Shown here: positions 9,004 to 53,172 of the stretch, one piece after another
Position numbering within the stretch: position 1 is the stretch's first letter
How the letters are laid out: the number at the start of each line of letters is the position of its first letter
Source: an uncultured Elusimicrobiaceae bacterium
GTDB taxonomy: Bacteria; Elusimicrobiota; Elusimicrobia; Elusimicrobiales; UBA9959
DNA length: 64,000 nucleotides
Direction: 5' to 3'
NCBI GenBank assembly: GCA_964587805.1
Contig: CAZPMW010000001.1
Span: 4,969 to 68,968, forward strand
Notes under the pieces: model-generated
Database searches by the model: none
What the model was told of the DNA's origin: nothing
The model's input: the letters and a program-made list of their open reading frames with translations, nothing else
Made by a program: the position numbers and the translations under genes

Positions 9004-9006
9004 TCA
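9004..9006 (-). other. Single in-frame TGA separating two halves of one reading frame
   Basis: On the minus strand the sequence reads ...ccg aag ctg TGA ttc agc tac act aaa.... All 25 codons between the TGA and the next ATG (8928) are open and in the same frame. Confidence 0.9.
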
Positions 9007-25725: not shown

Positions 25726-27018
25726 ATGATAAAGAGCATCGTGACGCTTTTGTTGATCGTGTCTCCGGCTCAGCCGTCCCATGGACAGGCGAACAGGGAA
25801 CCGGAGGTGCTCACGCTTGAGGAGGTGGTCGCGCGCGCCGTTAAAAACGACCCGCTGCTTCTTTCCTCCGAGCAGGATATCATCATCGCCAGACAGCGGG
25901 TGCGGGAAGCGAGATTCATAAACATGCCACAGTTGGCGCTTTCCGGCACTTTTTCCCGGGTAAACCTGGAATACCCCACGATACTTGGGCCCGAATTGGG
26001 GGACAGGTACCTGGACCCGGCGGTTAACAATAATTTCTACACGATGCGGGCTTACGCGCTCCAGCCTCTGTATACCGGCGGACGTAATAAAAGCACGCTC
26101 CGATTGGCCAAGACCGCCCACAACCAGGCTAAAGTTAATTACGATACGGTTAGAACCGACGCTGTTTACAGGGCCAAGACCGTTTTCTACACTTTGCTTT
26201 TTAATAAGAAACAGCGCGAGCTGACGCAACTGCGCCGGACCATGGCCCGCGACCTCAGCGAGAGGATTCGCAAAGACGCCTGGGAGGCCATAGAGGCCAG
26301 GCTATTGCTGGCCGGCCTGGAGAAACAGGCCGAGCAGTTCGCGCATGACGAGGAGGTCTCAAAGGCCGGGCTCGCCAGGATACTTAACCGTGAGCCTTCC
26401 TACCAGATTGATATAACCGGAGAATTAGCGCCGCTGCCGGCTGCGGCAACCGTCCAGAAGAGCCTGGTGACCGCCATGGAGGTGCGCTCGGAGCTAAAGA
26501 GCGAGATCTATAAGGCCCAGATGGATGATATCGCGGTGAATATGGCCATGATAAGACGCTATCCGAATATTTATCTGGGCGCCAGCTACGATGTCCTTGG
26601 CTACAGGGTAAATTCCCTGACCGATAATTCCATCCGCGCCAACAATTGGGCGGCGTCCATCGCCATTCATTTCCCGCTTTCCTATGATATCTGGACCCAG
26701 GTTCTGCAGCGCCGCGCCCAGCAGCGCCAGGGCGATCTCAAGCGCGTGGAGCTGCAGGATAAGATACGTTTTGAGATAGTCAGCGCGCACAAAGATCTGG
26801 AGTTCTGGAGCGCGGAAGCTATTAAAAGAGAGTCCGTTCTGGCGGCCGCTGAGAGGGACTACGCTGCCGCGACCGTGACGGCGCCCGCGTCGATGGCCGC
26901 CCTGCGCGCGCTGTGCTCCATATCCGATTTTAAAAAAACTTACCTTGAAAGCGTTTACCAGCACCTTCTGTCCCGCATCAAGCTCGAATGGGCTCAGGGG
27001 CGGGATCTTCCGGAGTAA
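25726..27018 (+). CDS. TolC-family outer-membrane efflux protein
   Basis: Start at MIKSIVTLLLIVSP (signal peptide). LTLEEVVARAVKNDPLLL is followed by two OEP repeats. The track's upstream 55 codons overlap the previous gene. Confidence 0.8.
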   Translation: MIKSIVTLLLIVSPAQPSHGQANREPEVLTLEEVVARAVKNDPLLLSSEQDIIIARQRVREARFINMPQLALSGTFSRVNLEYPTILGPELGDRYLDPAVNNNFYTMRAYALQPLYTGGRNKSTLRLAKTAHNQAKVNYDTVRTDAVYRAKTVFYTLLFNKKQRELTQLRRTMARDLSERIRKDAWEAIEARLLLAGLEKQAEQFAHDEEVSKAGLARILNREPSYQIDITGELAPLPAAATVQKSLVTAMEVRSELKSEIYKAQMDDIAVNMAMIRRYPNIYLGASYDVLGYRVNSLTDNSIRANNWAASIAIHFPLSYDIWTQVLQRRAQQRQGDLKRVELQDKIRFEIVSAHKDLEFWSAEAIKRESVLAAAERDYAAATVTAPASMAALRALCSISDFKKTYLESVYQHLLSRIKLEWAQGRDLPE

Positions 27019-27044
27019 AACCTCCCAGGCCAAAAGGTTCCAGG

Positions 27045-28019
27045 ATGAAGGATAACGGATTAAAGGCGGTAAAGATCTTTTTGTTGTCCTGCGCGCTGTG
27101 TTCTGCAGCGCTTGTCCGGGCTTCGGCGCAGGACCAATCAAGGGAAGACGGGATTCTGCGCGAGTTTATGTGGGATAAGCTTTCCCGGACAGGCCCGGAG
27201 GGGCGGCCCGCCGTCGGGCTCGCGCTTTCCGGCGGCGGCGCGCGCGGTTTCGCTCACGCTGGCGTGCTGGAGGCGCTTGGCTACGCCGGCTTTCCGCTGG
27301 ATTCCATAGCGGGCACTTCCATGGGCTCGGTTATCGGGGCCCTTTACGCGTCCGGCATGAGCGTGCCCGTTATATGGGGGTTTGCTGGCAGCGCTAAAAC
27401 GCTTAAAATCTCCCGGGATTTCAGCGGTATAAAGTTCCTGAGCCTGCTCATAGCCGACAAGCTTATAACGCCTACCTATATCAACCAGTTTATAGAGAAG
27501 AATCTCGGTTCTCTCTCGTTTGACAGGCTAGCGATCCCCTTCGCCTGCGTGGCTCTTGATTTCAGGACCGGTGAAAGAGTGATTCTGGATGAAGGGCCGC
27601 TGGCGGATGCGGTCAGGGCGAGCGTAAATCTCCCCGGCGTATTCGCGCCTTTTGAATACCGCCACCGCTATCTGGTGGACGGCGGCGTGATCGATTTTGT
27701 GCCGGTGGACGCCGCCAGGCATCTTGGCGCGGATTGGGTTCTGGCAAGCGTCACCGCCGGCGTCTCCGATGAGGTGCCGGGCAATGTCCTTCTGTCGCTG
27801 CTGAAAGTTATAGACATCCAGGGAAACCTGCTCGCCGGGATAAACGCGAAGAAGGCCGATTTTGTCATCAAGCCGGAAGTCGGAAACATGAAGATGACGG
27901 ACTTCGAGTCATGCGGGGCTGCCGGTGAAGCCGGCTTGATAGAGGCCTCCAGGCGCGTTGACCAGGCCCGCGAAGCGTACCTAGTGTTCTCGGCCCGGCG
28001 CCTGTTGGAGGGCTTATGA
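27045..28019 (+). CDS. Secreted patatin-like phospholipase
   Basis: Signal peptide (KIFLLSCALCSAALVRASA). Oxyanion motif LSGGGARG, nucleophile GTSMG and catalytic VDGG are present. Confidence 0.8.
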   Translation: MKDNGLKAVKIFLLSCALCSAALVRASAQDQSREDGILREFMWDKLSRTGPEGRPAVGLALSGGGARGFAHAGVLEALGYAGFPLDSIAGTSMGSVIGALYASGMSVPVIWGFAGSAKTLKISRDFSGIKFLSLLIADKLITPTYINQFIEKNLGSLSFDRLAIPFACVALDFRTGERVILDEGPLADAVRASVNLPGVFAPFEYRHRYLVDGGVIDFVPVDAARHLGADWVLASVTAGVSDEVPGNVLLSLLKVIDIQGNLLAGINAKKADFVIKPEVGNMKMTDFESCGAAGEAGLIEASRRVDQAREAYLVFSARRLLEGL

Positions 28020-34675: not shown

Positions 34676-34855
34676 AGCGATATTTTAGCATTTAGTTGCG
34701 CGGGGTCTCTGACCATTGAAATACCGGGATTTCCCTGCTATGCTATAGTTTAGGCTATTCAGCCGCATAAGTTTTTCCCTCCGTATTCGGGCCGACCGCT
34801 GATGTTTGCGGCTGAGTTCAAAGCTTTGTCCTTGCAGCAGATAGTGGAGATTTAT

Positions 34856-36436
34856 ATGAAAAACAATTCAACGCTCCCGGTCATTAAACGAACGATCTTG
34901 CGTGCAGCTCTTCCCGCGGCTATCGCGTTATTTTTAATGCCCCTGCCCGCAGTGTTTGGCGATAGCCCGTCCTCAGAAGCCGAAGGCAGTCTGCCATATG
35001 CGGATCCTATCTGTAATCTGATGGTGAACAACCTGAAGAAAGAAATGGCGGCAATAAACGCCTTCCTGGAGAACTGTCCGCCTGAGGGACAGGCAGCCGC
35101 AGATAAAGCCAAATGTGAAAAATACACCCGCAGGCTTGAGCTTACTGACGCTAACCTGCTCCGGGTAAAGGAACAGTGCGACAACGGCCTAACGCCAACT
35201 TCTCTGCCCAAAGTAGTGGATAATCCCGACGCGGCGGTTCCATGCGCTGGCTGCAAAGCGGGCAAAAAATTGCCAAAACTGCCGGTTGCCGGCAAGGTGA
35301 TGAATTTAAAGGCCGGCAATACGTCTTCGGGCGTGAAAGTGTACGATGGTGTAGCCCCGCTGGGCTCCAAAGACGCCCCCGCTATGGCCGCTGCGCCGGC
35401 TGCGGCCCAGCCGGCACGCGCGCCCGCGAGCGCAGGCGCCTCGCGGGCAGTAGCCGACGCTTCCAACACCACTGTGACCAATAGCCAGTCCAGGAGTGCA
35501 AGTTCGCCAAGGGCCCCGGTGCAGCCGGCAACCCAGCCGCGCGCGGCGACACCCGCAACCCCCGCCGACGCGAACCTCATTCCGCGCCCTGTCGTCTACT
35601 GGGCGGGGGGCACCGGCAACCTCTTTATCTTTTTCGGCAACTCCTTTGGCAACCTTTTAACCTCGGGCGGCGTGACCGGAGCTAACGCGGTGACAGCGGC
35701 GATGTCCTTTGTCCCCGTTGATCCTGCCATCTGGGATTTTGTCAATATTCCCTACCCTGCCGCCATTTTTCCGATGGCGTTTTCCATACAATTGGGTAAG
35801 ACAATGGTGATTCGAGCCATAAAATCGCGTCCCGGCCCCTTTGCCCTGGCCGGAACCAGCCAGGGCAGCATAGTCATGAATGAAGTTTACAAAGAGATAC
35901 GTTATGGCTCTTTACAATCAAGAAGGAAAGACCTGCTGGCAGGCTGCCAGTTCGGAGATCCGCTGCGCGAGCAGGGGATCCTGTTCCCGGGGTGTCCCGA
36001 CCCCGGCGTTTGGAATGATCCGGGGTCGCGCTCCGTCGGGCATGGGATCTTCCCGGCAGCCAAGCGGCTTAAGGGGACGGAGTCCTTCTGGCTGGAGTTC
36101 GCCAATGTCGGCGACCCTGTGTGCACTACAGGTGACGACGCCGTGGGCGTCTACTTTCAGCTCATAGGTAATTTTGTATTCCTGGGACAAATCGATGGCG
36201 ACAATTTTAAGAGCGCTTTGCGCAATATTACCGCTATCCCTAAAGTGATCGGCCGGTTGGTCGAGGCCGTGAAACAGATCACCTCGACCGGCTATGTGAA
36301 CCCCCATAACGGCTACAATACGATCCCCGCCTGGCCGGGGGCCAAAGAGACGTCTTCCCAGATAGCCGCGAGGTATCTAAACAACGTAGGACAGACCTAT
36401 TACAATAACGCCAGGCAGGCGGCCCTCAAAAAATAG
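34856..36436 (+). CDS. Secreted protein with a C-terminal cutinase/PE-PPE-like serine esterase domain
   Basis: Start at the ATG at 34856, after ggaga. Signal peptide (AALPAAIALFLMPLPAVFG). An N-terminal Cys-containing helical region is followed by a long Ala/Pro/Ser linker. The C-terminal domain carries the nucleophile elbow LAGTSQGS, FGDPLRE and GDPVC motifs, as in cutinases. Confidence 0.6.
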   Translation: MKNNSTLPVIKRTILRAALPAAIALFLMPLPAVFGDSPSSEAEGSLPYADPICNLMVNNLKKEMAAINAFLENCPPEGQAAADKAKCEKYTRRLELTDANLLRVKEQCDNGLTPTSLPKVVDNPDAAVPCAGCKAGKKLPKLPVAGKVMNLKAGNTSSGVKVYDGVAPLGSKDAPAMAAAPAAAQPARAPASAGASRAVADASNTTVTNSQSRSASSPRAPVQPATQPRAATPATPADANLIPRPVVYWAGGTGNLFIFFGNSFGNLLTSGGVTGANAVTAAMSFVPVDPAIWDFVNIPYPAAIFPMAFSIQLGKTMVIRAIKSRPGPFALAGTSQGSIVMNEVYKEIRYGSLQSRRKDLLAGCQFGDPLREQGILFPGCPDPGVWNDPGSRSVGHGIFPAAKRLKGTESFWLEFANVGDPVCTTGDDAVGVYFQLIGNFVFLGQIDGDNFKSALRNITAIPKVIGRLVEAVKQITSTGYVNPHNGYNTIPAWPGAKETSSQIAARYLNNVGQTYYNNARQAALKK

Positions 36437-42501: not shown

Positions 42502-42564
42502 GAAATTACCGTTGTGCTACAATACTACAGTAATGATTCTATTACTTTTGGGATGCAAAGGAAA

Positions 42565-43479
42565 ATGAGACACCTGGAAAAACCGGTCGGGCTCTTCTTA
42601 TGCGGAGGCGGAGCGCTGGGCAGCTGGCAGTCCGGCGCACTCGCGCGGCTTGTCACCGGAGGCGTGGAATTCGACGCCGTGGCGGGTTTCAGCGTGGGCG
42701 CGCTTAACGGGGCCGGCTACTGCTATAACAAGACCGGCGAGATGCGCGAGATCTGGGCGGGTCTGAAGCCGGAGCGCATGCTCTCCATGCGGCCCGGCTA
42801 TAATAATATGCCTCTGGAACTTTACCGGCATCACGGCCCGGGCTTTTTCCAGACGCTCGGCTTCCTGGTTCAGAAGCATATTTCCAGGATGTATCTCTTC
42901 TCGAACAAGCCGATCTACCGCTTCCTGGACTCCTGGCTTTCAAAAACGGGCGTGAAGTTCAGCCGCGATGTTAATTTTTACGTCATCAGCCACTCCGTGG
43001 AGAACAAATTGCCGTACATCGTCAAATTCGACGGCGGCACGCACGCCTATAACATATCGTTCGTGGACGCGCTGGTGGCCAGCTGCGCCATCCCGACTAT
43101 TTTTCCGCCCATAGAAGTTACCGAGCGCGGGAGCACCTGCCATCTGGTGGACGGCGGCGTGATAGGCGTCGCCAATATAAATCTCAATATTTTTGAAGGG
43201 TGCAAGACCATAGTGATGATCGGCAACTCCAGGGAGGAAGACCTGAATTTCCCGACGTCGGGACTTTTCGGGCATTTTGAATCCAAAGCCAGGAAAATGC
43301 TCGCCATTCACACCCATAAGATCTATGAATCCCGGGTTTTCATAAAATCCGCGCCGGTCGTGCACTATTTCAAGCCCCCGGTGGACCTGGACCTGGGCAT
43401 TCTTGAATTTAACGGCGCCAAATGCGCGCGCGCGTTCGATATCGGGGAAAGGGAAGCCGAGAAGTGGCTTAACAGCTAA
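42565..43479 (+). CDS. Cytoplasmic patatin-like phospholipase
   Basis: LCGGGALG oxyanion motif, GFSVG nucleophile and VDGGV catalytic Asp. Start at the ATG at 42565, after aaagga. GC is noticeably lower than in neighbouring genes: hand counts of two 60-nt lines give 47% and 53%. Confidence 0.75.
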   Translation: MRHLEKPVGLFLCGGGALGSWQSGALARLVTGGVEFDAVAGFSVGALNGAGYCYNKTGEMREIWAGLKPERMLSMRPGYNNMPLELYRHHGPGFFQTLGFLVQKHISRMYLFSNKPIYRFLDSWLSKTGVKFSRDVNFYVISHSVENKLPYIVKFDGGTHAYNISFVDALVASCAIPTIFPPIEVTERGSTCHLVDGGVIGVANINLNIFEGCKTIVMIGNSREEDLNFPTSGLFGHFESKARKMLAIHTHKIYESRVFIKSAPVVHYFKPPVDLDLGILEFNGAKCARAFDIGEREAEKWLNS

Positions 43480-45061: not shown

Positions 45062-46069
45062 ATGTCTAAAACTGAATTTTCGGCTATTGTGCCGGTGGCG
45101 GGGGCGGGGACGCGGCTTCGGCCGCACACGCACACCTACCCAAAGGTGCTGCTGACCGTGGGGGACAAGCCCATCCTCGGCCATATTCTTGACGAGCTCT
45201 CGGCGGCGGGCGTTAAAAAAATCTTCATGGTCATCGGCTATATGGGGGATAAGATCAGGACCTATGTCTCGGATAAATATCCACGGCTCGATGTCCGCTA
45301 TATTACGCAGGAGGAGCCCAAGGGCCTCGGACACGCGATCTGGATAACCCGCAATTATGTAAAAGGCCCCGCGCTGGTTCTGCTCGGCGACACCATAATT
45401 TCAGCCGACCTCCGCAAGTTTATGAGCGGGGGGGATGACGCCATAGCCGTAAGGGAGGTGGCCGACCCGCGCCGCTTCGGCGTGGTGGAAGCGAAACGAG
45501 GCCGTATAATCAGTATGGTTGAGAAACCCGCGAACCCGGTTTCCAACCTCGCCATCGTTGGCATCTACTCTTTCAAGGACAGCCGCCCGTTGTTCGGCAG
45601 TCTGGACAACCTGGTACGGTCCGGCCGGACCACCAGGGGGGAGATACAGCTTACCGACGCCTTGGCGCTTATGCTCAAGGGCGGCCACAAATTCCGCCCG
45701 GTAACGATAGACGGCTGGTATGACTGCGGGAAACCTGAAACCCTGCTGGAGACCAACCGCTATATCCTGAAAAAGAAAAATCCCGCGCACCGCGCGCCCG
45801 GCTGCGCCATAATAGAGCCGGTGTACATCTCGCCGCGCGCGAAGGTTTCCAATTCGGTGATCGGACCTTACGCTTCCATAGGCGACGGGGTTATAGCTGA
45901 CTACTCTATAATCTCGGACTCCATTATCAACGAGAAAGCCGTAGTCATGAACATGAACCTCAGCCGGTCGCTGGTCGGCCCGGGCGCCACTATCATAGGC
46001 CGGCGGGAGCAGATCAATATCGGAGAGAGCTCGGAGATAAGGTTCGATAAGGCGGTTTGCGAACTGTAA
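45062..46069 (+). CDS. Sugar-phosphate nucleotidyltransferase with a C-terminal left-handed beta-helix
   Basis: AIVPVAGAGTRLRPHTHTYPKVLL (G-x-G-T-R-x-P motif). The C-terminus has hexapeptide-like repeats. First gene of the his-containing transcription unit. Confidence 0.75.
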   Translation: MSKTEFSAIVPVAGAGTRLRPHTHTYPKVLLTVGDKPILGHILDELSAAGVKKIFMVIGYMGDKIRTYVSDKYPRLDVRYITQEEPKGLGHAIWITRNYVKGPALVLLGDTIISADLRKFMSGGDDAIAVREVADPRRFGVVEAKRGRIISMVEKPANPVSNLAIVGIYSFKDSRPLFGSLDNLVRSGRTTRGEIQLTDALALMLKGGHKFRPVTIDGWYDCGKPETLLETNRYILKKKNPAHRAPGCAIIEPVYISPRAKVSNSVIGPYASIGDGVIADYSIISDSIINEKAVVMNMNLSRSLVGPGATIIGRREQINIGESSEIRFDKAVCEL

Positions 46070-46090: not shown

Positions 46091-46960
46091 ATGAATAAGC
46101 CGGAAACAAAAATAAGAATGGGCCTGCCCAAGGGCAGGATGAAGGACAACATATTCGAGCTGATGAACGACGCCGGGATAAAAATAAGGACCACACTGCG
46201 CGACTACCGCCCCAGCGCTTCGCTCGATAATCTGGAGATAAAGATACTGAAACCGCAGAACATAGCGGAGATGCTGCACGCCGGCTCCATTGACCTGGGT
46301 TTCACCGGGGACGACTGGGTAAGAGAGCTTAATTTTGACGTGGTGGAATTGCTGGATACGGGGTTCGACAAGGTGGACCTGGTCGCCGCCGCGCCCGCCG
46401 CGCTTCTCAAGGGCGATAAACTTCCACGCAGAAAACTCGTCATCGCGTCAGAGTATGAAAGGCTGAGCAGGGCCTGGATAAAAAAGAAAGGGATAGACGC
46501 GACATTCGTGAGGTCGTACGGCGCCACGGAGGTCTTTCCCCCGGAGGACGCCGACCTCATAATAGATATTACGGCCACAGGCTCAACGTTAAAAGCAAAT
46601 AATCTGAAGATCGTGGACACCATCTCGTCTTCCTCCACCAGGCTGTACATGAGCAGGCCGGCGTATAAGAACCCCGGGAAAAAGGAAGCCATAGACGCGC
46701 TGGTGATGCTGTTCAGGTCGGTGTTCGAAGCGCGCAAACGCGTGATACTCGAGGTCAATGTGTCGGCCGAGAAGCTGAAGTCCGTGATAAGCATCCTGCC
46801 GTGCATGCGCGAGCCCACCGTGGCCGAGCTGTACGGCGGAGCGGGCTACGCGCTTAAGGTCGCGGTGCCGCGCGAAGCCCTGCCTGTGCTGATTCCTAAG
46901 ATCAAGAAACACGGCGGTACCGATATTATCGTCACCAGGCTGGCGCATATCGTGCCGTAA
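46091..46960 (+). CDS. hisG: ATP phosphoribosyltransferase (long form)
   Basis: GLPKGRMKD...DLGFTGDDWV...ITATGSTLKAN plus a C-terminal regulatory domain. 289 aa. Confidence 0.9.
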   Translation: MNKPETKIRMGLPKGRMKDNIFELMNDAGIKIRTTLRDYRPSASLDNLEIKILKPQNIAEMLHAGSIDLGFTGDDWVRELNFDVVELLDTGFDKVDLVAAAPAALLKGDKLPRRKLVIASEYERLSRAWIKKKGIDATFVRSYGATEVFPPEDADLIIDITATGSTLKANNLKIVDTISSSSTRLYMSRPAYKNPGKKEAIDALVMLFRSVFEARKRVILEVNVSAEKLKSVISILPCMREPTVAELYGGAGYALKVAVPREALPVLIPKIKKHGGTDIIVTRLAHIVP

Positions 46961-46971
46961 CGGGACCGTTT

Positions 46972-48687
46972 ATGAGCGTAAAACCCGTACCGGGAGTTGG
47001 CAAGGTCGCGATGTACTGCGCGCCAAAACCGCGCTGTCCAGTAGAGCTCATGCTCAATCTGAACGAGGGGCCGTTGCCGCCGCCCGGGTTCTTAAAGAGG
47101 GTCTGTGGAGAGATGGACCCGGGAAATGTAAACAGGTATGTGGGAACCGAAGCCCTGGAAAAAGATATCGCGGCGAGAGCCGGCGTGTCAGCCGACAGGG
47201 TTATAGTCACCAGCGGCGGCGATGACGCCATAGAGCGGGTGATGCGGGCCGTGCTCGCGCCGGGCCGGGAAGTCATAGTGCCGGTGCCTACCTATGAGAT
47301 GGTCAATATTTACGCCGGCCTTATAGGCTGCAGCGTAATCAGGCCCGTCTGGCGGAGCGGCGCATTCCCGGTCAAAAAGATCTTATCGTCGGTCAGCGGT
47401 AAAACTTCCCTGATAGTCGCTATATCGCCCTCCAATCCCACCGGACTTACGATAAGCGCCGCAGAGCTCAAGCGATTGTCGGCGGGCGCGCCCGGGGCGC
47501 TGATCATGGTAGACCTGGCGTATGTGGATTTCGCGGATAAGGACCTGACGAAGACCGTGCTGGGCCTGCCTAATGCGGTGGCGGTCAGGACACTTTCCAA
47601 AGCTTACGGGCTGGCCGGACTGAGGGTCGGCTACGCCATAGGCCCGGAGAGGGTTATAAGCTGGCTGAGGAAGATAGGCATGCCGTACCCCGTCTCCTCC
47701 GCGTCGCTGGCGCTCGCGGCCGAGAGGCTGAAGGATAAAAACGGTGAGGTTAAAAGGTATATAGCCAGAATAAGGGAAGAGAGGAAAGAACTCAGGGCTT
47801 TGCTGCGGGGCCACGGTGTAAAGTCAGACCCGTCCCAGGGTAATTTCATACTCGCGGAATTTAAGGACGCCCGCAGGGTATGGGAAGCTTTGGCCGGACT
47901 CGGCGTCTGCGTCAGGATATTTCCGGAACATAAAGAGCTTGAGAGCTGCCTGCGCGTCAGCCTTCCGGGAGATGAGGCCGGGTTTAAGCGGCTATGCCGC
48001 GCTTTTGAAATAGTTTTGGCGCCGCAGGCGCTATTATTCGATATCGACAACACTTTAGTGGATACATCGCGGTCCTATATAAAGGCCATCGTGCGTACCG
48101 CCAGGTCGTTCGGGGCCGATATTAATCACGACGATGTCGCGGCCGCGAAGGCGAAGGGCGGGTCAAACAACGATTGGAAACTTACCCGCAGCCTGTTAAG
48201 AGCCAGGGGCATAAAAGCCGGCCTGAAGGCCGTTACGGACAGATTTGAGCAGTTATATCAGGGCACGCTGAATACCCCCGGCTTTAAAGAGGCGGAGCGG
48301 CTGATTATCGACAGGAAAATTCTAACGACGCTGGCTCGCCGCTATAAGCTTGGGCTGGTAACAGGCCGCCCCCGCAAAGATACGGAAGCTTTCCTTAAGA
48401 GGTTCGGGCTGAGTGGCCTGTTCGGCGGCGTGATTACTATGGACGACGCCAGAGAAAAGCCGGATCCCGAGCCGGTTCTGCTCTGCATGAAGCGGCTGGG
48501 CTGTTCCAAAGCGTGGTTCTTCGGAGACAGCCCGGACGATATGCAGGCGGCGAGGCGCGCCGGCGTTTTGCCCGTCGGCGTTCACTCTCCGTCCAAGCTC
48601 AGCAAGGATACGGAGCTGGCGCTGTACGGCGCCGGGGCTTCCAGGGTCCTGAAAAATATCAATGAATTAGAGGAGATCCTGCCATGA
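46972..48687 (+). CDS. hisC: Histidinol-phosphate aminotransferase fused to a C-terminal HAD-superfamily phosphatase domain
   Basis: Residues 1-350 form a class-II aminotransferase (SPSNPTG, PLP-lysine motif SKAYGLAGLRVGY). Residues ~353-571 (nt ~48028-48684) form a HAD domain with motif I FDIDNT, motif II VTGR, motif III EKPDP and motif IV GDSPDD. Confidence 0.85.
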   Translation: MSVKPVPGVGKVAMYCAPKPRCPVELMLNLNEGPLPPPGFLKRVCGEMDPGNVNRYVGTEALEKDIAARAGVSADRVIVTSGGDDAIERVMRAVLAPGREVIVPVPTYEMVNIYAGLIGCSVIRPVWRSGAFPVKKILSSVSGKTSLIVAISPSNPTGLTISAAELKRLSAGAPGALIMVDLAYVDFADKDLTKTVLGLPNAVAVRTLSKAYGLAGLRVGYAIGPERVISWLRKIGMPYPVSSASLALAAERLKDKNGEVKRYIARIREERKELRALLRGHGVKSDPSQGNFILAEFKDARRVWEALAGLGVCVRIFPEHKELESCLRVSLPGDEAGFKRLCRAFEIVLAPQALLFDIDNTLVDTSRSYIKAIVRTARSFGADINHDDVAAAKAKGGSNNDWKLTRSLLRARGIKAGLKAVTDRFEQLYQGTLNTPGFKEAERLIIDRKILTTLARRYKLGLVTGRPRKDTEAFLKRFGLSGLFGGVITMDDAREKPDPEPVLLCMKRLGCSKAWFFGDSPDDMQAARRAGVLPVGVHSPSKLSKDTELALYGAGASRVLKNINELEEILP

Positions 48688-49286
48688 GAACAGCGAAAGT
48701 GAACAGGGAGACGAAAGAGACAAAGATCCGCGTCAGCCTGAACCTGGACGGCTCCGGCAAGGCCGATATCTCCACGGGGATAGGGTTTCTCGACCACATG
48801 CTCACCGCCCTGGCGCATCACGGGCGCTTCGATCTCAAGCTGAGCTGCTCCGGGGACCTGGAGGTGGACGACCACCACACCACGGAGGACTGCGCGCTAG
48901 TGCTCGGCAAGGCCTTCAATGACGCGCTGGGCGACAAAAGAGGCGTCAGGCGCTTCGGCTGCGCCTGCGTGCCGATGGACGAGTCCCTCGCGAGGGCCGT
49001 TATCGACCTGTCCGGGCGGCCGTTCGCCGGCGTGAATCTGAAACTGAGCCGCGAATTCGTAGGAGAGACCGGCAAGGAAATCAACTCGGAGAACCTCACT
49101 CATTTTATCCGCTCTCTGGCCATGTCGGGGATGATGACTGTTCATGTCGACGTCTTAAAGGGCGACAATGACCACCATAAAGCCGAGGCGGCATTCAAGG
49201 CGCTGGCTCTGGCTTTAAATAAGGCTGTTCGCCTTATGGACGGCGCGGCCCGCTTAAAAACGCCCAGCACCAAAGGGGTGCTATAG
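48684..49286 (+). CDS. hisB: Imidazoleglycerol-phosphate dehydratase (monofunctional)
   Basis: RETKETKI...GIGFLDHMLTALAHHG...DDHHTTEDCALVLG. At 200 aa there is no N-terminal HAD domain. Confidence 0.9.
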   Translation: MRTAKVNRETKETKIRVSLNLDGSGKADISTGIGFLDHMLTALAHHGRFDLKLSCSGDLEVDDHHTTEDCALVLGKAFNDALGDKRGVRRFGCACVPMDESLARAVIDLSGRPFAGVNLKLSREFVGETGKEINSENLTHFIRSLAMSGMMTVHVDVLKGDNDHHKAEAAFKALALALNKAVRLMDGAARLKTPSTKGVL

Positions 49287-49870
49287 TGGTTACAGTAATT
49301 GAGACCGGCACCGCTAACATAGCGTCAATGCTGGCCGGGCTGTCGCGCTTGGGCGCCGAACCCAGGCTCAGCCGCGACGCCAAAGATATCGAGGAGGCCG
49401 GGCATGTGGTGCTGCCTGGCGTAGGCTCATTTAAAGCCGCAATGAGCGGGCTGGATCAGCCGCTGAGAGCCGCCATAATAAAACGTTTCAGGGAAGACAG
49501 ACCGACGCTGGCCGTGTGCCTGGGCCTGCAGCTTTTGTGCCTGGAGAGCGAAGAGGATCCGGGCTGCGCTGGTTTGGGGATCATACCGGAAAAGGTGGTG
49601 AGGTTCCCCAAAGGCTTGTGTGTGCCGCACATGGGCTGGAATACCGTGGCGCCGGAAGCCGGCTGCCGGTTCCTGACCCCGGGGTACGCGTATTTTGCCA
49701 ATTCATTTTGTCTAAGGCGCATTCCGGAAGGCTGGACGGGGGCGTATTCTGTGCATGGCGCCCCGTTCGTAGCGGCCCTGGAAAAGGGGCGTCTTTTGGC
49801 CTGCCAGCTCCACCCGGAACTTTCCGGGGCCTGGGGACTGGGGCTGATCAAAAGATGGCTGGGGAAATAA
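49286..49870 (+). CDS. hisH: Imidazole glycerol phosphate synthase, glutamine amidotransferase subunit
   Basis: GTG start. VLPGVGSF, the nucleophile region LAVCLGLQLL and the HPE triad motif are present. Confidence 0.85.
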   Translation: MVTVIETGTANIASMLAGLSRLGAEPRLSRDAKDIEEAGHVVLPGVGSFKAAMSGLDQPLRAAIIKRFREDRPTLAVCLGLQLLCLESEEDPGCAGLGIIPEKVVRFPKGLCVPHMGWNTVAPEAGCRFLTPGYAYFANSFCLRRIPEGWTGAYSVHGAPFVAALEKGRLLACQLHPELSGAWGLGLIKRWLGK

Positions 49871-49871
49871 T

Positions 49872-50627
49872 ATGCTGACGGTAAGAATAATACCCTGCCT
49901 GGACGTCAGCAACGGCCGGGTGGTAAAGGGAATAAAATTTCAGGACCTGCGGGACGCCGGTTCTCCGGCAGAACTCGCGAAGAATTACGAGAAGGACGGC
50001 GCCGATGAACTGGTTATACTTGACGTGTCCGCTACGCCAGAGGGGCGCGGCACACAGCTCGATGTGGTCAGGGCCGTCAGAGCGAATATCTCGATACCGT
50101 TATGCGTGGGCGGCGGCGTAAGAAACGGAGAGTCCGCGTTCCAGCTCCTGAACGCAGGCGCAGACAAGGTCGGCATCAACACGGCGGCCGTGGAAAACCC
50201 GGCGATCCTCGGTGAGCTGGCCGCCAGATTCGGCAGGCAATGCGTGGTGCTGGCCATAGACGCGGCGTCTAACGGCGACAACCGCTGGGAAGTGGTCACC
50301 AGGTCCGGCAAGAACAGGACCGGTCTCGACGCGGTCAAATGGGCCGAAGCCGCGGCGAAAGCCGGCGCCGGGGAAATACTGCTTACCTCCTGGGACAGGG
50401 ACGGCACAAAACAGGGCTATGATCTGCCCCTGATCTCCGCTATCTCGGGCGTAGTGGATATTCCGATCATCGCTTCGGGCGGGGCCGCCGTCCCGGAGCA
50501 TATGTCCGCCGCGGTCAAGGCGGGCGCGGACGCGGTTCTTGCGGCCTCCATCTTCCATCACGGAGAGTATACCGTGGACACTCTTAAAACAGCGCTGGCG
50601 CGCTTAGGCGTTGAGGTCAGACAATGA
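49872..50627 (+). CDS. hisF: Imidazole glycerol phosphate synthase, cyclase subunit
   Basis: RIIPCLDV..GRVVKG...GADELVILDV...GGGVR...SGGAG-type TIM-barrel motifs. Confidence 0.9.
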   Translation: MLTVRIIPCLDVSNGRVVKGIKFQDLRDAGSPAELAKNYEKDGADELVILDVSATPEGRGTQLDVVRAVRANISIPLCVGGGVRNGESAFQLLNAGADKVGINTAAVENPAILGELAARFGRQCVVLAIDAASNGDNRWEVVTRSGKNRTGLDAVKWAEAAAKAGAGEILLTSWDRDGTKQGYDLPLISAISGVVDIPIIASGGAAVPEHMSAAVKAGADAVLAASIFHHGEYTVDTLKTALARLGVEVRQ

Positions 50628-51904
50628 TAATTCCGTCGATAGATATCATGGACGGTCAGGCGGTACAGCTTATAGGCGGGGAAAAGAAAGCCATAGACGC
50701 CGGCGATCCGTTCCCCATAGCGGAGCGCTTCTCCGTAGCCGGCGAGCTCGCGGTTATAGATCTCGACGCCGCGAAGGGCAAAGGCGATAACAAGGCGCTG
50801 ATCAAAAAGCTGGTCAAGCGATACCGCTGCAGGGTAGGCGGAGGCATAAGGACTTACGACGCGGCGCTGGAATGGCTGGACGCCGGCGCCTCAAAGATAA
50901 TAATAGGTACGGCCGCCACGCCGGAACTTTTATCCAGGCTGCCTAAAGCGAGGGTCATCGCGGCGCTAGACGCGCGGCATGGCGAGGTGGTTGTGGAAGG
51001 CTGGAAGACCGGCACTGGCCGGAGCATAACTGACGGGATCGGCCGGCTCCGCGACCATGTCGGCGGTTTTCTCGTGACCTTCGTGGAAACCGAGGGAAGG
51101 ATGAAGGGCTTTGACAGGGCCAGGGCCGCTGAGATAATAAAACAGGCCGGGAACTGCCGGGTCACTATCGCCGGAGGCGTGACCACCGTGGACGACATCG
51201 CCCACCTGGACGGGTTGGGCGCCGACGCGCAGGTGGGTATGGCTTTGTATACCGGCAATATGAGCCTGGCTGAAGCTATTGTAAGCCTCATCAAAGATCG
51301 CGAGGGCCTATGGCCCACCGTCATAGCCGACGAGCACGGCCAGGCCCTGGGGTTGGCCTGGTCAAATCTTGAGAGCGTCACGGAAGCCGTTAAGACCCTG
51401 AGCGGCGTGTATTTTTCAAGGAAGAGGGGGCTCTGGAAAAAAGGGGCGACTTCCGGCAACGGTCAGAAGCTGCTGAAGATAGATTTGGACTGCGATAACG
51501 ACGCTCTGCGTTTTACGGTCAGGCAAAACGGCAAAGGCTTCTGCCATAACGACACGTGGACCTGCTGGGGTGATGACGCCGCCCTGTCCTCGGTAGAGAA
51601 GATGCTGAAGCACAGGCTTACTGACGCGCCGGAAGGCTCTTATACCAAACGACTGTTCAGCGACCCCGGACTGCTCAGGGCCAAGATAATGGAGGAGGCC
51701 GGGGAGCTGACGGAGGCTATCGCAAGCGGCTCCAAAGAGGAGATAATCGGCGAAGCCGGCGATGTCATCTTCTTTACCCTTGCGGCCATGATCAAAGCCG
51801 GCGTCAGCCTCGAGGACGTGGAGCATGAATTATATTTAAGGTCCCTGAAGGTGACCAGGCGTCCGGGCGACGCCAAGCCGCCGCGGACCCCGGAGAAAAT
51901 ATGA
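50624..51904 (+). CDS. hisA: Trifunctional fusion: ProFAR isomerase (HisA) + PRA-CH (HisI) + PRA-PH (HisE)
   Basis: Residues 1-223 are HisA-like (IIPSIDIMDGQAVQL...GGGIR...IAGGV). Residues ~226-317 are HisI (WPTVIADEHGQALGLAWSN...SRKRGLWKKGATSGN...DCDNDAL...CHNDTWTCW). Residues ~320-405 are HisE (PEGSYTKRLF...EEAGELTEA...EAGDVIFF). Confidence 0.85.
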   Translation: MIIPSIDIMDGQAVQLIGGEKKAIDAGDPFPIAERFSVAGELAVIDLDAAKGKGDNKALIKKLVKRYRCRVGGGIRTYDAALEWLDAGASKIIIGTAATPELLSRLPKARVIAALDARHGEVVVEGWKTGTGRSITDGIGRLRDHVGGFLVTFVETEGRMKGFDRARAAEIIKQAGNCRVTIAGGVTTVDDIAHLDGLGADAQVGMALYTGNMSLAEAIVSLIKDREGLWPTVIADEHGQALGLAWSNLESVTEAVKTLSGVYFSRKRGLWKKGATSGNGQKLLKIDLDCDNDALRFTVRQNGKGFCHNDTWTCWGDDAALSSVEKMLKHRLTDAPEGSYTKRLFSDPGLLRAKIMEEAGELTEAIASGSKEEIIGEAGDVIFFTLAAMIKAGVSLEDVEHELYLRSLKVTRRPGDAKPPRTPEKI

Positions 51905-53172
51905 GGAAATATCTCAGGAGAATAAGCCCCGCAGCCCTGCCATCCAGATTCAGGGACCCAGCTGACGCTAAGGCCCTGGTCGCGGCGCAGTCTGTCTTAA
52001 AGGAGATAGAGGCGAAAGGAGAGTCCGCTGTAAGAAAATACGCCGAACATTTCGGGGATATCGCTAAAGGCGCCCCCCTGGCGGCCGGTAAGAAAGAGCT
52101 TGAAAAAGCCTATGCTGGTCTGAAAAAAGACGAGCGGGCCTTGCTGAGGCGGGTAAAACAGCGCATAGAGTCGTTCGCGCGCGCGCAGAAAGACAGTCTT
52201 GAAGAGATAACGCTTAAGATTCCCGGCGGCCTGGCCGGCCATCGGATCTCCCCGGTGCGGTACGCAGGCTGTTACGCTCCTGGCGGACGGTTCCCTTTGC
52301 CCTCTTCCGTTCTGATGACCGCGGTCACCGCGCGTGTCGCGGGAGTAAAGTCGGTATGGGTGGCTTCCCCGAAGCCGGAGCCTATCACTCTCGCAGCCGC
52401 GTTCGTCGCTGGCGCCGACGGCCTGCTTAAAATAGGCGGCATACAGGCCATAGGGGCTTTCGCTTTCGGCACCTCGTTCAATCCCGCCTGTGACGTGATA
52501 GCCGGCCCCGGCAATAAATACGTTACCGCCGCTAAAAAACTGGTGTCCGGCAGGGTGCTGATAGATATGCTGGCCGGCCCTTCGGAATTAACGATACTGG
52601 CCGATGACACTGCGGATTCACGGATAATCGCGGCAGATCTGCTGGCGCAGGCTGAGCACGACACTGACGCTGTACCGATACTCGTCACTACGGACCGGGC
52701 GCTGATAGCCGCCGTGGATATAGAATTAGGCAGGCAGTTGAAAACGCTTAAAACCGCGGCCACTGCGGCAAGGGCCCTGGAGAACGGCTTTGCCGTACAC
52801 GTTAAAAATATTGAGCAGGGCATAGCTGTTTGCGACGCACTGGCCCCGGAACATCTGGAAGTCTGCGTGAGGGGCGCCGAAGCCGTGGCGAAACGCTGCG
52901 CTAACTATGGCGGGTTGTTTATAGGGCAGGGCAGCGCCGAGGTTTTTGGCGATTACGGCGCAGGGCCGAATCACACTCTGCCCACCGGGGGCACGGCGAG
53001 GTATACCGGCGGTCTGTCCGTATTTAATTTTCTACGCATTCGTACCTGGCTCAAGATCAATAGTCCAAAGGCCGCGTCCGGCATTATCAAGGACGCCGTT
53101 CAGCTGGCGGAGCTGGAGGGCCTGGCCGGACACGCGCGGTCAGCCGCAGGCAGACAGCCCGGGTCCCTATAG
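51901..53172 (+). CDS. hisD: Histidinol dehydrogenase
   Basis: 423 aa with the PGGRFPLPSSVLM, AGPSE, QAEHD and GDYGAGPNHTLPT motifs. Confidence 0.9.
   Translation: MRKYLRRISPAALPSRFRDPADAKALVAAQSVLKEIEAKGESAVRKYAEHFGDIAKGAPLAAGKKELEKAYAGLKKDERALLRRVKQRIESFARAQKDSLEEITLKIPGGLAGHRISPVRYAGCYAPGGRFPLPSSVLMTAVTARVAGVKSVWVASPKPEPITLAAAFVAGADGLLKIGGIQAIGAFAFGTSFNPACDVIAGPGNKYVTAAKKLVSGRVLIDMLAGPSELTILADDTADSRIIAADLLAQAEHDTDAVPILVTTDRALIAAVDIELGRQLKTLKTAATAARALENGFAVHVKNIEQGIAVCDALAPEHLEVCVRGAEAVAKRCANYGGLFIGQGSAEVFGDYGAGPNHTLPTGGTARYTGGLSVFNFLRIRTWLKINSPKAASGIIKDAVQLAELEGLAGHARSAAGRQPGSL

What the first reader, a model, noticed from the sequence alone, without database searches (positions are those of the whole stretch)
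46972..48687. HisC fused to a HAD phosphatase: candidate for the otherwise missing histidinol-phosphatase
hisB here (48684-49286, 200 aa) is a monofunctional IGP dehydratase without the HAD-type phosphatase domain found in bifunctional HisB. No PHP-type (HisJ/K) or IMPase-type (HisN) gene is present in the operon.

Instead, the aminotransferase gene carries a C-terminal ~220-aa HAD domain with all four catalytic motifs intact (FDIDNT, VTGR, EKPDP, GDSPDD). HisC makes histidinol phosphate and the phosphatase consumes it. The fusion would therefore join two consecutive steps and might channel the intermediate. I do not recall this domain architecture being characterised.
Basis: partly seen in the sequence, partly recalled or inferred. 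Interest (0 to 1): 0.55.

Follow-up and report, generated by a model that had tools for sequence, protein, structure and literature searches.

The report
HisC fused to histidinol-phosphate phosphatase
One gene in this bacterial histidine operon joins the aminotransferase that makes histidinol phosphate to a HAD-type phosphatase that very probably removes its phosphate, which would fill the pathway's "missing" step; the fused form is common in databases but appears unnamed and untested.

Summary
ORF 46972-48687 (+) encodes 571 aa: an intact HisC aminotransferase (residues 1-349) joined by three residues to a HAD-IA phosphatase (353-571). hisB is IGP dehydratase only. No PHP, IMPase or second HAD gene was found among 40 window ORFs.

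If the HAD domain is the histidinol-phosphatase, the seven-gene operon encodes every step to histidine.

- The fusion is not an artefact: more than 1,500 homologues, and 114 of the top 150 cluster representatives, share it across at least eight phyla.
- In 17 of 17 loci an IGPD-only hisB follows the HAD.
- Stand-alone homologues in DPANN archaea and Bryobacteraceae lie between hisC and hisB. That is the position of Nmar_1556, a characterised archaeal HolPase.
- The same HAD clade also occurs fused as HisD-HAD-IGPD and as HisA-I-E-D-C-HAD.
- Cap residues reproduce the spacing of the published nmHisN fingerprint. This lineage, however, has Ile where Asp or Arg is usual.

I could not align directly to nmHisN, and the rest of the genome is unseen. 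No paper I found describes the fusion. Verdict: a new variant of a known kind, of moderate interest. Channelling remains speculative.

The parts
46972..48687 (+). hisC-HAD fusion gene, 571 codons plus stop. The stop overlaps the hisB start by 4 nt.
   Evidence: ORF list; Pfam Aminotran_1_2 + HAD_2; identical protein on record in NCBI; full-length AF2 model pLDDT 93.7, pTM 0.90
46972..48018 (+). HisC domain (residues 1-349): PLP-dependent histidinol-phosphate aminotransferase
   Evidence: TIGR01141 hisC is the best NCBIfam hit at 224.6 bits, below the 276.55 cut-off. The best PDB sequence match is E. coli HisC 1fg3, E 6e-35, with NRY, SPSNPTG, DLAY, LSKAYGLAGLRVG and LRVS conserved. Foldseek top 48 hits are HisC-family chains, mostly bona fide HisC, TM-target 0.77-0.89
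47599..47601 (+). Lys210, the predicted PLP Schiff-base lysine (SKAYG)
   Evidence: Motif position; S209 and K210 invariant in a 34-sequence alignment; aligns to LSKAF of E. coli HisC
48019..48027 (+). Three-residue junction (350-352) between the last HisC helix (335-349) and the first HAD strand (353-356). There is no flexible linker and no internal start codon.
   Evidence: Secondary structure of the full-length model; sequence
48028..48684 (+). HAD-IA phosphatase domain (residues 353-571): proposed histidinol-phosphate phosphatase
   Evidence: HAD_2 / Hydrolase. TIGR01548 is the best NCBIfam model at 131.8 bits, against 58.7 for the runner-up. AF2 model pLDDT 93.2 with a Rossmann-like core plus helical cap. 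PDB neighbours are HAD-IA C1-cap phosphatases
48037..48054 (+). HAD motif I, FDIDNT (356-361). Asp357 is the nucleophile and Asp359 the general acid/base.
   Evidence: D357 and D359 conserved in 389 and 394 of 398 family domains, the rest being gaps
48061..48345 (+). Alpha-helical C1 cap (about residues 364-458) inserted between motifs I and II. It is the specificity module and carries Y369, I370, I373, V389, K393, D401 and W402.
   Evidence: Helices 366-379, 386-395, 401-411, 418-430, 438-441 and 448-457 in the model; family conservation; spacing matches the nmHisN fingerprint reported in PMC10804674
48358..48369 (+). HAD motif II, VTGR (463-466)
   Evidence: T464 in 394/398 and R466 in 397/398
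48454..48468 (+). HAD motif III, EKPDP (495-499), with Lys496
   Evidence: K496 in 396/398
48523..48540 (+). HAD motif IV, GDSPDD (518-523). Asp519 and Asp523 are the Mg2+ ligands.
   Evidence: D519 and D523 in 398/398
48684..49286 (+). hisB, a monofunctional imidazoleglycerol-phosphate dehydratase (200 aa)
   Evidence: Pfam IGPD only; NF002111 258.8 bits, above its cut-off; aligns only to the C-terminal half of the bifunctional HisB model
46091..46960 (+). hisG, long-form ATP phosphoribosyltransferase (HisG + HisG_C)
49286..49870 (+). hisH (glutamine amidotransferase subunit)
49872..50627 (+). hisF (cyclase subunit)
50624..51904 (+). hisA-hisI-hisE triple fusion (426 aa)
   Evidence: His_biosynth 1-213, PRA-CH 244-315 and PRA-PH 322-403; the same fusion occurs in 19 related loci
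51901..53172 (+). hisD (histidinol dehydrogenase), which consumes the phosphatase's product
   Evidence: Histidinol_dh, E 4e-127

Best explanation
The gene encodes a bifunctional enzyme for steps 7 and 8 of histidine biosynthesis.

The N-terminal HisC domain is PLP-dependent, with Lys210 as the Schiff-base lysine. It transaminates imidazole-acetol phosphate with glutamate to give L-histidinol phosphate. HisC enzymes are known to be dimers; this was not tested here.

The C-terminal HAD-IA domain then hydrolyses the phosphate ester. Standard HAD chemistry is assumed:
- Asp357 is the nucleophile and forms an aspartyl-phosphate intermediate.
- Asp359 is the general acid/base.
- Thr464 and Lys496 bind the phosphate.
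- Asp519 and Asp523 hold Mg2+.

Specificity would come from the helical cap (Tyr369, Ile373, Val389, Lys393, Asp401). The product, histidinol, goes to HisD.

The fusion most likely arose by loss of the stop codon between translationally coupled hisC and hisN-like genes. It fixes 1:1 stoichiometry and places an irreversible step directly after a reversible transamination.

Shown here: the domain architecture, intact motifs, conserved operon position and wide distribution. Inferred: the substrate, from context, independent fusions and resemblance to characterised archaeal HolPases. Not shown: enzyme activity, any channelling, and the absence of a second HolPase elsewhere in the genome.
For: 1. 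Architecture and intact catalytic residues in both domains.

2. Pathway completeness. The operon encodes HisG, HisE/I/A, HisH/F, HisB(IGPD), HisC and HisD, and lacks only the HolPase unless the HAD domain supplies it. No other candidate was found among 40 window ORFs.

3. The fusion is conserved. All 120 best homologues are about 570 aa and carry both domains. The HAD clade has 277 50%-identity clusters at E<=1e-30, and 114 of the top 150 representatives are fused. Fused genes occur in Planctomycetota, Myxococcota, Brocadiaceae, Phycisphaerales, Gemmatimonadales, Acidobacteriota, Bradymonadales and Vulcanimicrobiota. A close relative is named Elusimicrobiales.

4. In 17 of 17 loci with downstream sequence, an IGPD-only hisB starts within about 50 nt of the HAD end.

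5. Stand-alone members lie between hisC and hisB, overlapping hisC by 1-16 nt, in an archaeon, a Woesearchaeote and a Bryobacteraceae genome. The characterised HolPase Nmar_1556 is reported in the same position (PMC10804674).

6. There are independent Rosetta-stone fusions of the same clade. P0247 is HisD-HAD-IGPD. P0205 is HisA-HisI-HisE-HisD-HisC-HAD.

7. Cap residues V365/Y369/R370/I373 and I389/K393/D401 (family consensus) reproduce the spacing of I20/Y24/D25/I28 and L52/K56/E64. These are the residues whose alanine mutants cripple nmHisN. The family consensus is Y-R-K-D. This is what the paper reports for its Euryarchaeota and delta-proteobacterial clusters, which it predicts to be HolPases. 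The variants YDRD (the toHisN fingerprint) and YDKD also occur in the family.

8. The full-length AF2 model has pTM 0.90 with a three-residue junction, which suggests a fixed two-domain body.
Against: - No activity data exist for this protein or for any fused or Y-R-K-D-type member.
- I could not obtain the Nmar_1556 or TON_0887 sequences. The fingerprint equivalence therefore rests on residue spacing and the paper's text, not on an alignment. The spacer between the two fingerprint groups is 8 residues shorter here.
- This lineage has Ile370 (Leu or Thr in its nearest relatives) at the position of nmHisN Asp25. The D25A mutant loses about 220-fold in kcat/KM, and 347 of 398 family members have Arg at this position.
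- The domain scores 131.8 bits against TIGR01548, under the 140.2 cut-off.
- Versions of the same operon without the HAD exist (L014, L016, L019, L021), and L017 keeps only a relic. The domain is therefore dispensable when another HolPase is present.
- IMPase-type HisN is reported as general in Myxococcales and Planctomycetia (PMC5516325), so some lineages may have both.
- One stand-alone homologue (Spirochaetota, L085) is not in a his context.
- Only 64 kb of the genome was visible.
Confidence: 0.84

Rival explanations
1. The HAD domain is an active phosphatase with another physiological substrate, for example phosphoglycolate, a sugar phosphate, or a housekeeping clean-up role. The true HolPase would be encoded elsewhere in the genome, and the fusion to HisC would be incidental or regulatory.
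For: - The closest solved structures and the non-TIGR01548 NCBIfam hits are phosphoglycolate, sugar and pyrophosphate phosphatases.
- HAD specificity is hard to read from sequence.
- HAD-less operons of the same type show that a HolPase can be supplied in trans.
- One stand-alone homologue lies outside a his cluster.
- Only the window was searched.
Against: - Those generic hits score 59 bits or less, against 132 for TIGR01548.
- The clade is tied to his genes by three different fusion partners (HisC, HisD, IGPD) and by a fixed position between hisC and hisB in bacteria and archaea.
- Its cap residues are highly conserved and match the pattern of a proven HolPase.
Confidence: 0.09
2. In this particular lineage (Elusimicrobiales-like) the HAD domain is catalytically weakened or on its way to being lost, because the cap position that is Arg or Asp elsewhere is Ile370. 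It would persist mainly as a structural appendage of HisC.
For: - Position 370 is I, L or T only in the query and its three closest relatives among the fused proteins.
- D25A in nmHisN costs about 220-fold.
- A relic HAD tail in Sumerlaeota (L017) shows that decay does happen.
Against: - All core catalytic residues, and Y369, I373, K393, D401 and W402, are intact.
- Homologues at 75-96% identity keep the whole domain.
- Hydrophobic or neutral residues at this position (L, M, N, S) recur in stand-alone archaeal members that sit inside his operons.
- Arg367, one helical turn earlier, is enriched in non-Arg370 sequences: 20/35 against 52/347. The count is confounded by relatedness.
Confidence: 0.05
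3. The fusion is an artefact: a sequencing or assembly frameshift, or a missed stop codon, merged two adjacent genes.
For: In some genomes the two genes are separate and overlap by only 1-16 nt, so a single error could fuse them.
Against: - The same continuous frame is found in well over a thousand independent sequences from many studies and phyla.
- The junction residues are conserved: Pro351 is invariant and Ala353 is 90% or more conserved.
- The identical protein recurs in NCBI, ENA and Logan assemblies.
Confidence: 0.01

Closest known systems
nmHisN (Nmar_1556, Nitrosopumilus maritimus) and toHisN (TON_0887, Thermococcus onnurineus): monofunctional HAD-type histidinol-phosphate phosphatases (Kinateder et al. 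2024, PMC10804674)
   Same: - HAD superfamily with a single all-helical cap between motifs I and II.
- The gene lies between hisC and hisB.
- Cap residues have the same spacing and chemistry: Y24/I28 with K56/E64(D) correspond to Y369/I373 with K393/D401.
- The paper itself predicts delta-proteobacterial and euryarchaeal homologues with a Y-R-K-D fingerprint to be HolPases. Y-R-K-D is the consensus of the family studied here.
   Different: - Here the phosphatase is covalently fused to HisC.
- The cap is shorter: 6 helices, against 9 in nmHisN and 7 in toHisN. The spacer between the two fingerprint groups is 8 residues shorter.
- Position 25 is Ile rather than Asp or Arg.
- No direct alignment could be made, because the archaeal sequences were not retrievable.
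TIGR01548 (HAD-SF-IA-hyp1), an NCBIfam/TIGRFAMs 'hypothetical equivalog' family of HAD-IA hydrolases
   Same: - It is the best-scoring model by more than 70 bits.
- NCBI and JGI name many fused and stand-alone homologues 'TIGR01548 family HAD-type hydrolase'.
   Different: - The query scores 131.8 bits, just under the 140.2 cut-off.
- The family carries no functional name, so membership says nothing about substrate.
HisB (HisNB) of E. coli and other gamma-proteobacteria: bifunctional histidinol-phosphatase / IGP dehydratase
   Same: A HAD-superfamily HolPase fused to another histidine-pathway enzyme inside the his operon.
   Different: - The partner is IGPD (steps 8 and 6, which are not consecutive) rather than HisC (steps 7 and 8, which are consecutive).
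- The phosphatase is N-terminal.
- It is a different HAD branch, the capless 'DDDD'/GmhB-like type. TIGR01656 scores only 35 bits here, against a cut-off of 84.
- hisB in this window lacks that domain.
paHisN (PA0335) / BPHYT_RS03625-type HAD HolPases, formerly annotated as phosphoserine phosphatases (PMC5764234, PMC10804674)
   Same: A HAD-superfamily HolPase that fills a long-standing annotation gap.
   Different: - An independent origin, with two small cap insertions and the fingerprint D16-D18-Y47.
- Not fused to HisC and usually outside the his operon.
PHP-type (HisJ/HisK/His2) and IMPase-type (HisN) histidinol-phosphatases
   Same: They catalyse the same reaction.
   Different: They have unrelated folds. 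None is present in the operon or among the window ORFs scanned.

Membership tests
HAD superfamily phosphatase | Four catalytic motifs: I DxDx(T/V), II (S/T), III K, IV (G/S)DxxxD | tested here: met
   FDIDNT 356-361, VTGR 463-466, EKPDP 495-499 and GDSPDD 518-523. These residues are near-invariant in 398 family domains. Pfam HAD_2 E 2.3e-24.
HAD subfamily IA (C1 cap) | A single alpha-helical cap module inserted between motif I and motif II | tested here: met
   The AF2 models (pLDDT 93) show six helices between strand 353-356 and strand 459-463. The nearest PDB folds are HAD-IA enzymes such as 3kbb and beta-PGM.
TIGR01548 family HAD-type hydrolase | Score at or above the curated cut-off of 140.2 bits | tested here: not met
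   131.8 bits for the domain alone and 128.5 for the full protein, both narrowly under the cut-off. It is still the best model by more than 70 bits, covering profile positions 1-197 of 197. Best treated as a close outlier of the family.
nmHisN/toHisN-type HAD histidinol-phosphatase | Fingerprint Y24-D25-K56-E64 (toHisN: Y-D-R-D), with accessory hydrophobic residues at positions 28 and 52 | tested here: inconclusive
   Y369, I373, V389, K393 and D401 match in residue type and in internal spacing (+4, +8). Position 25 is Ile370, where the family consensus is Arg. The equivalence was inferred from spacing and from the paper's description, not from an alignment to Nmar_1556, whose sequence I could not obtain.
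nmHisN/toHisN-type HAD histidinol-phosphatase | Gene located in a his cluster between hisC and hisB | tested here: met
   Here the domain is fused to the 3' end of hisC and overlaps hisB by 4 nt. The order is the same in 17 of 17 related loci and in three stand-alone contexts.
nmHisN/toHisN-type HAD histidinol-phosphatase | Specific Mg2+-dependent hydrolysis of L-histidinol phosphate | not testable with these tools
   This needs an enzyme assay or complementation.
HisC (histidinol-phosphate aminotransferase, TIGR01141) | Equivalog score at or above 276.55 bits | tested here: not met
   224.6 bits. It is the best model, ahead of CobD at 161.7.
HisC (histidinol-phosphate aminotransferase, TIGR01141) | PLP lysine, cofactor- and substrate-binding residues, HisC fold, and his-operon context | tested here: met
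   NRY, SPSNPTG, DLAY, SK210AYGLAGLRVG and LRV are conserved against E. coli HisC 1fg3. The Foldseek top hits are all HisC-family chains, mostly bona fide HisC, with TM-target 0.77-0.89. The gene lies between hisG and hisB.
Bifunctional HisB (HisNB, NF003937) | An N-terminal DDDD-type HAD domain preceding IGPD | tested here: not met
hisB here is 200 aa and aligns only to profile positions 167-355 of 355.

The most novel reading that the evidence does not exclude
The HisC-HolPase fusion may be a rigid two-active-site machine that hands histidinol phosphate from the aminotransferase to the phosphatase without release. It may also be one stage of a horizontally spreading, fusion-prone his operon. 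In relatives this operon goes as far as HisC-IGPD, HisH-HisF, HisA-I-E-D and a six-domain HisA-I-E-D-C-HolPase polypeptide. That would be a bacterial and archaeal counterpart of the multifunctional eukaryotic HIS4/HIS7 proteins, and a natural series for studying how metabolons form by gene fusion.
Probability: 0.15. Interest if true: 0.65.

Novelty: new variant of a known kind. Interest (0 to 1): 0.45.

Why it matters
Histidinol-phosphatase is the step most often reported as missing in genome-based reconstructions of amino-acid biosynthesis. GapMind found it low-confidence in 28% of 148 prototrophs (PMC7311316).

Recognising this HAD clade as the HolPase would close that gap for large, mostly uncultured groups. 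The clade occurs fused to HisC in Planctomycetota, Myxococcota, Elusimicrobia-like, Gemmatimonadota and Acidobacteriota, and stand-alone in DPANN archaea and Bryobacteraceae. It would also correct generic annotations such as 'aminotransferase class I/II-fold enzyme' and 'TIGR01548 family hydrolase'. This in turn would prevent false predictions of histidine auxotrophy in MAGs.

It adds hisC to the list of his genes known to fuse; reviews currently list it as never fused. It also offers a compact bifunctional enzyme for testing whether fusing consecutive steps gives a kinetic benefit.

Tried and rejected
1. Direct comparison with the characterised archaeal HolPases failed.
- The paper's supplements are not held.
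- Two further homologue searches, seeded with stand-alone archaeal members (P0259 and the Y-N-K-D variant P0291), reached only DPANN archaea, Bryobacteraceae, KSB1 and Spirochaetota, not Thaumarchaeota or Thermococcales.
- None of the 501 collected sequences has nmHisN's residue numbering.

The PDB fold and sequence searches returned only generic HAD-IA enzymes, and no HolPase of this type has been solved.

3. Organism naming through cluster look-ups gave one useful name (Elusimicrobiales, for a 75%-identical homologue). The species-level genome collection holds no close relative; the best match is 48% identical.

4. I considered whether Arg367 compensates for the missing Arg370. It is enriched among non-Arg370 sequences (20/35 against 52/347), but more than half of those are close relatives of the query. 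I do not rely on it.

5. I looked for a HAD gene beside hisC in the two archaeal loci fetched (L025, L073) and in 60 other HisC-only loci with a family HMM. None was found.

6. I considered CobD (threonine-phosphate decarboxylase) as the identity of the PLP domain. I rejected it on score, context and structural neighbours.

7. Model coordinates are not exposed, so I could not measure the distance between the active sites or check whether the cap residues line the pocket.
Full report
**What is in the sequence**

The ORF 46972-48687 on the + strand is real and encodes 571 residues. Pfam places an Aminotran_1_2 domain at residues 52-345 and a HAD_2 domain at 354-534.

The PLP-lysine motif SKAYG begins at residue 209.

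The gene sits in a tightly packed operon:
- hisG (long form), 46091-46960
- the fusion gene, 46972-48687
- hisB, 48684-49286
- hisH, 49286-49870
- hisF, 49872-50627
- a hisA-hisI-hisE triple fusion, 50624-51904
- hisD, 51901-53172

Neighbouring genes overlap by 1-4 nt or are separated by short gaps.

hisB is an IGP dehydratase only. It aligns to the C-terminal half (positions 167-355) of the model for the bifunctional enzyme.

I ran 40 further ORFs of the window through Pfam. None is a PHP-type, IMPase-type or additional HAD phosphatase. The only PHP hit is the PHP domain of DnaE.

**The two halves**

The N-terminal half is a normal HisC.
- TIGR01141 is its best NCBIfam model, although below the equivalog cut-off.
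- Its best PDB sequence match is E. coli HisC. The cofactor- and substrate-binding segments are conserved: NRY, SPSNPTG, DLAY, LSK210AYGLAGLRVG and LRV.
- The full-length AlphaFold model superposes on solved HisC structures with TM-target 0.77-0.89.

The C-terminal half is a HAD-IA phosphatase with a six-helix cap inserted between motifs I and II (pLDDT 93).
- Its best family model by more than 70 bits is TIGR01548, a 'hypothetical equivalog' with no assigned function. The score is 131.8 bits against a cut-off of 140.2.
- No close relative has a solved structure. The PDB neighbours are generic HAD-IA enzymes at 27% identity or less.

The last HisC helix (335-349) runs into the first HAD strand (353-356) through three residues. 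There is no internal start codon. The full-length model has pTM 0.90, which suggests a fixed two-domain body rather than beads on a string.

**Is the fusion real and how common is it?**

It is real and common.
- The identical protein is on record from the source contig (NCBI, 69.8 kb). A 75%-identical homologue is labelled Elusimicrobiales, which is the best clue to the organism.
- A syntenic contig, GCA_022703115.1, has the same gene order.
- A search of 5.8 billion proteins gave 1,586 hits. The 120 best are all about 570 aa and carry both domains. They are named only 'histidinol-phosphate aminotransferase', 'aminotransferase class I/II-fold PLP-dependent enzyme' or 'TIGR01548 family HAD-type hydrolase'.
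- An exhaustive HMMER scan with the HAD domain found 277 clusters (50% identity) at E<=1e-30. Of the top 150 representatives, 114 are fused and 14 stand alone.
- In species-level genomes the fused gene occurs in Planctomycetota (including Brocadiaceae and Phycisphaerales), Myxococcota/Bradymonadales, Gemmatimonadales, Acidobacteriota and Vulcanimicrobiota.

**Evidence for the substrate**

1. Pathway completeness. The operon encodes every step except the phosphatase, unless the HAD domain is that phosphatase.

2. Gene order. In all 17 related loci that extend far enough, an IGPD-only hisB begins within about 50 nt of the end of the HAD.

3. Split forms. In Bryobacterales and Terriglobia the HAD is a separate ORF just after hisC. 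Stand-alone homologues lie in hisG-hisD-hisC-HAD-hisB-hisH... operons and overlap hisC by 1-16 nt. They were seen in an unclassified archaeon, a Woesearchaeote and a Bryobacteraceae genome. Kinateder et al. 2024 (PMC10804674) found Nmar_1556 in exactly this position. They showed it to be a specific HolPase, with kcat/KM about 1e4 M-1 s-1 and no activity on nine other phosphoesters.

4. Independent fusions. The same HAD clade appears in P0247 as HisD-HAD-IGPD, without HisC. It appears in P0205 as a 1,501-residue HisA-HisI-HisE-HisD-HisC-HAD protein. With HisC, HisD and IGPD the clade has three different histidine-pathway partners. That is hard to reconcile with any other substrate.

5. Active-site pattern. 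Across 398 collected domains the catalytic Asp/Asp/Thr/Lys/Asp/Asp residues are essentially invariant. The cap positions V365, Y369, R370, I373, I/V389, K393 and D401 are also strongly conserved. Their spacing (i, +4, +5, +8 and i, +4, +12) is that of I20, Y24, D25, I28 and L52, K56, E64. These are the seven residues within 4 Å of docked histidinol phosphate in nmHisN, whose alanine mutants lose between about 7-fold (I20A) and nearly 4,000-fold (K56A) in kcat/KM. The family consensus is Y-R-K-D. The paper reports this fingerprint for its Euryarchaeota cluster and its two small delta-proteobacterial clusters, and it predicts both to be HolPases. Variants identical to the toHisN fingerprint (Y-D-R-D) and to the mixed Y-D-K-D type also occur in the family.

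**Caveats**

- I could not retrieve the Nmar_1556 or TON_0887 sequences. The residue equivalence is inferred from spacing and text, not from an alignment. The stretch between the two fingerprint groups is eight residues shorter here.
- The query and its three nearest relatives have Ile, Leu or Thr at position 370, where 347 of 398 family members have Arg and nmHisN has Asp. Neutral residues at this position recur in stand-alone archaeal members that lie in his operons. I therefore read it as tolerated variation, but it needs a test.
- The domain is not indispensable. Operons of the same type in Phycisphaerae and a delta-proteobacterial MAG have an unfused HisC and no HAD nearby. A Sumerlaeota HisC retains only a 60-residue relic of the HAD.
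- IMPase-type HisN is reported as general in Myxococcales and Planctomycetia (PMC5516325), so some lineages may carry two HolPases.
- One stand-alone homologue, in Spirochaetota, lies beside an argininosuccinate-lyase-like gene and not in a his cluster.
- Only 64 kb of this genome could be inspected.

**Mechanism proposed**

HisC makes L-histidinol phosphate from imidazole-acetol phosphate and glutamate. The HAD domain hydrolyses it through an Asp357 phospho-enzyme intermediate. Asp359 acts as general acid/base, Thr464 and Lys496 bind the phosphate, and Asp519 and Asp523 bind Mg2+. The cap closes over the imidazole and amino groups. HisD then oxidises histidinol.

The fusion plausibly arose by loss of the stop codon between translationally coupled genes. 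It guarantees equal amounts of the two activities and places an irreversible step directly after a reversible one.

**Comparison with what is known, and novelty**

The known HolPases are:
- the DDDD/GmhB-like HAD domain of HisB (HisNB)
- the PA0335-type HAD enzymes
- the nmHisN/toHisN HAD enzymes
- the PHP enzymes
- the IMPase-like HisN

This domain belongs with, or next to, the nmHisN/toHisN and TIGR01548 group. It is unrelated in cap architecture to HisB-N: TIGR01656 scores 35 bits against a cut-off of 84.

Reviews of his-gene fusions list hisA/F, hisIE, hisHF, hisNB and hisIED, and they count hisC among the genes that never fuse (PMC1963479, PMC10138114). Six full-text searches found no description of a HisC-phosphatase fusion. 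The 2024 paper that predicts the delta-proteobacterial homologues to be HolPases does not mention an aminotransferase domain.

I therefore class this as a new variant of a known kind. The enzyme chemistry and the family are known, the archaeal relatives are characterised, and the fused architecture is abundant in databases. The architecture has nevertheless not been named, discussed or tested.

**Verdict**

Interest is moderate (0.45). A specialist would find the result satisfying rather than startling. Its practical value for annotation is considerable, because HolPase is the most common apparent gap in amino-acid biosynthesis reconstructions.

Noticed in passing
window 50624-51904 (+): A HisA-HisI-HisE triple fusion (426 aa: His_biosynth 1-213, PRA-CH 244-315, PRA-PH 322-403). 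The same fusion appears as a single full-length match in 19 fetched loci from Planctomycetota, Myxococcota, Gemmatimonadales, Acidobacteriota, Sumerlaeota, Spirochaetota, Vulcanimicrobiota and one archaeon. The only literature mention I found is of four archaeal assemblies (PMC11237513).
   Followed up: partly
P0205 (1501 aa) and P0247 (802 aa), from the representative search: P0205 is a six-domain polypeptide, HisA-HisI-HisE-HisD-HisC-HAD. P0247 is HisD-HAD-IGPD, with the IGPD part cut off at the sequence end. These are extreme fusions of histidine-pathway enzymes. Their source organisms are unknown.
   Followed up: partly
L018 9663-11177 and 11171-13792 (Phycisphaeraceae MAG CAYTAH010000006.1): A HisH-HisF fusion (504 aa) is followed by a HisA-HisI-HisE-HisD fusion (873 aa). 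HisC in this operon is unfused and lacks the HAD.
   Followed up: partly
L022 7977-9692 (Pirellulaceae MAG CALKCK010000044.1): A 571-aa HisC-IGPD (HisC-HisB) fusion. Residues 381-571 are 58% identical to this window's HisB, and there is no HAD. Here hisC is fused to the enzyme of the preceding step instead of the following one.
   Followed up: partly
L017 682-1935 (Candidatus Sumerlaeota MAG JADZDZ010000120.1): HisC of 417 aa carries a C-terminal tail of about 60 residues that matches only the last third of the HAD profile (positions 164-222). Motifs I-III are gone. It looks like a decayed remnant of the fusion.
   Followed up: partly
L083 7290-8501 (Woesearchaeota GCA_019322485.1): HisH is fused to a second, generic HAD-IA domain (403 aa; only 56 bits to the family HMM; no SYR/NNDW cap signature). 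The same operon also has the stand-alone TIGR01548-like HAD between hisC and hisB. The function of this second HAD is unknown.
   Followed up: partly
P0125, P0222, P0250 (about 310-320 aa): These are HAD proteins of the family with an acidic N-terminal extension of about 90 residues. By eye the extension resembles the last sub-domain of HisC. Their pI is 4.2-5.2 (4.2-4.4 for P0125 and P0250). They may be partial fusions or truncated gene calls.
   Followed up: no
window 9004-12783 (-), 7402-8928 (-), 34802-36436 (+), 3931-4893 (+): Long ORFs (1259, 508, 544 and 320 aa) with no Pfam match at E<=1e-4.
   Followed up: no
window 45062-46069 (+): An NTP_transferase gene with a C-terminal left-handed beta-helix ends 21 nt before hisG. 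It keeps the same position in the syntenic contig L081, so it may be co-transcribed with the his operon.
   Followed up: no
window 26988-28019 (+) and 42514-43479 (+): Two patatin-like phospholipase genes lie in one 64-kb window. The second sits beside a DUF1646 membrane protein and a TauE/SafE exporter.
   Followed up: no
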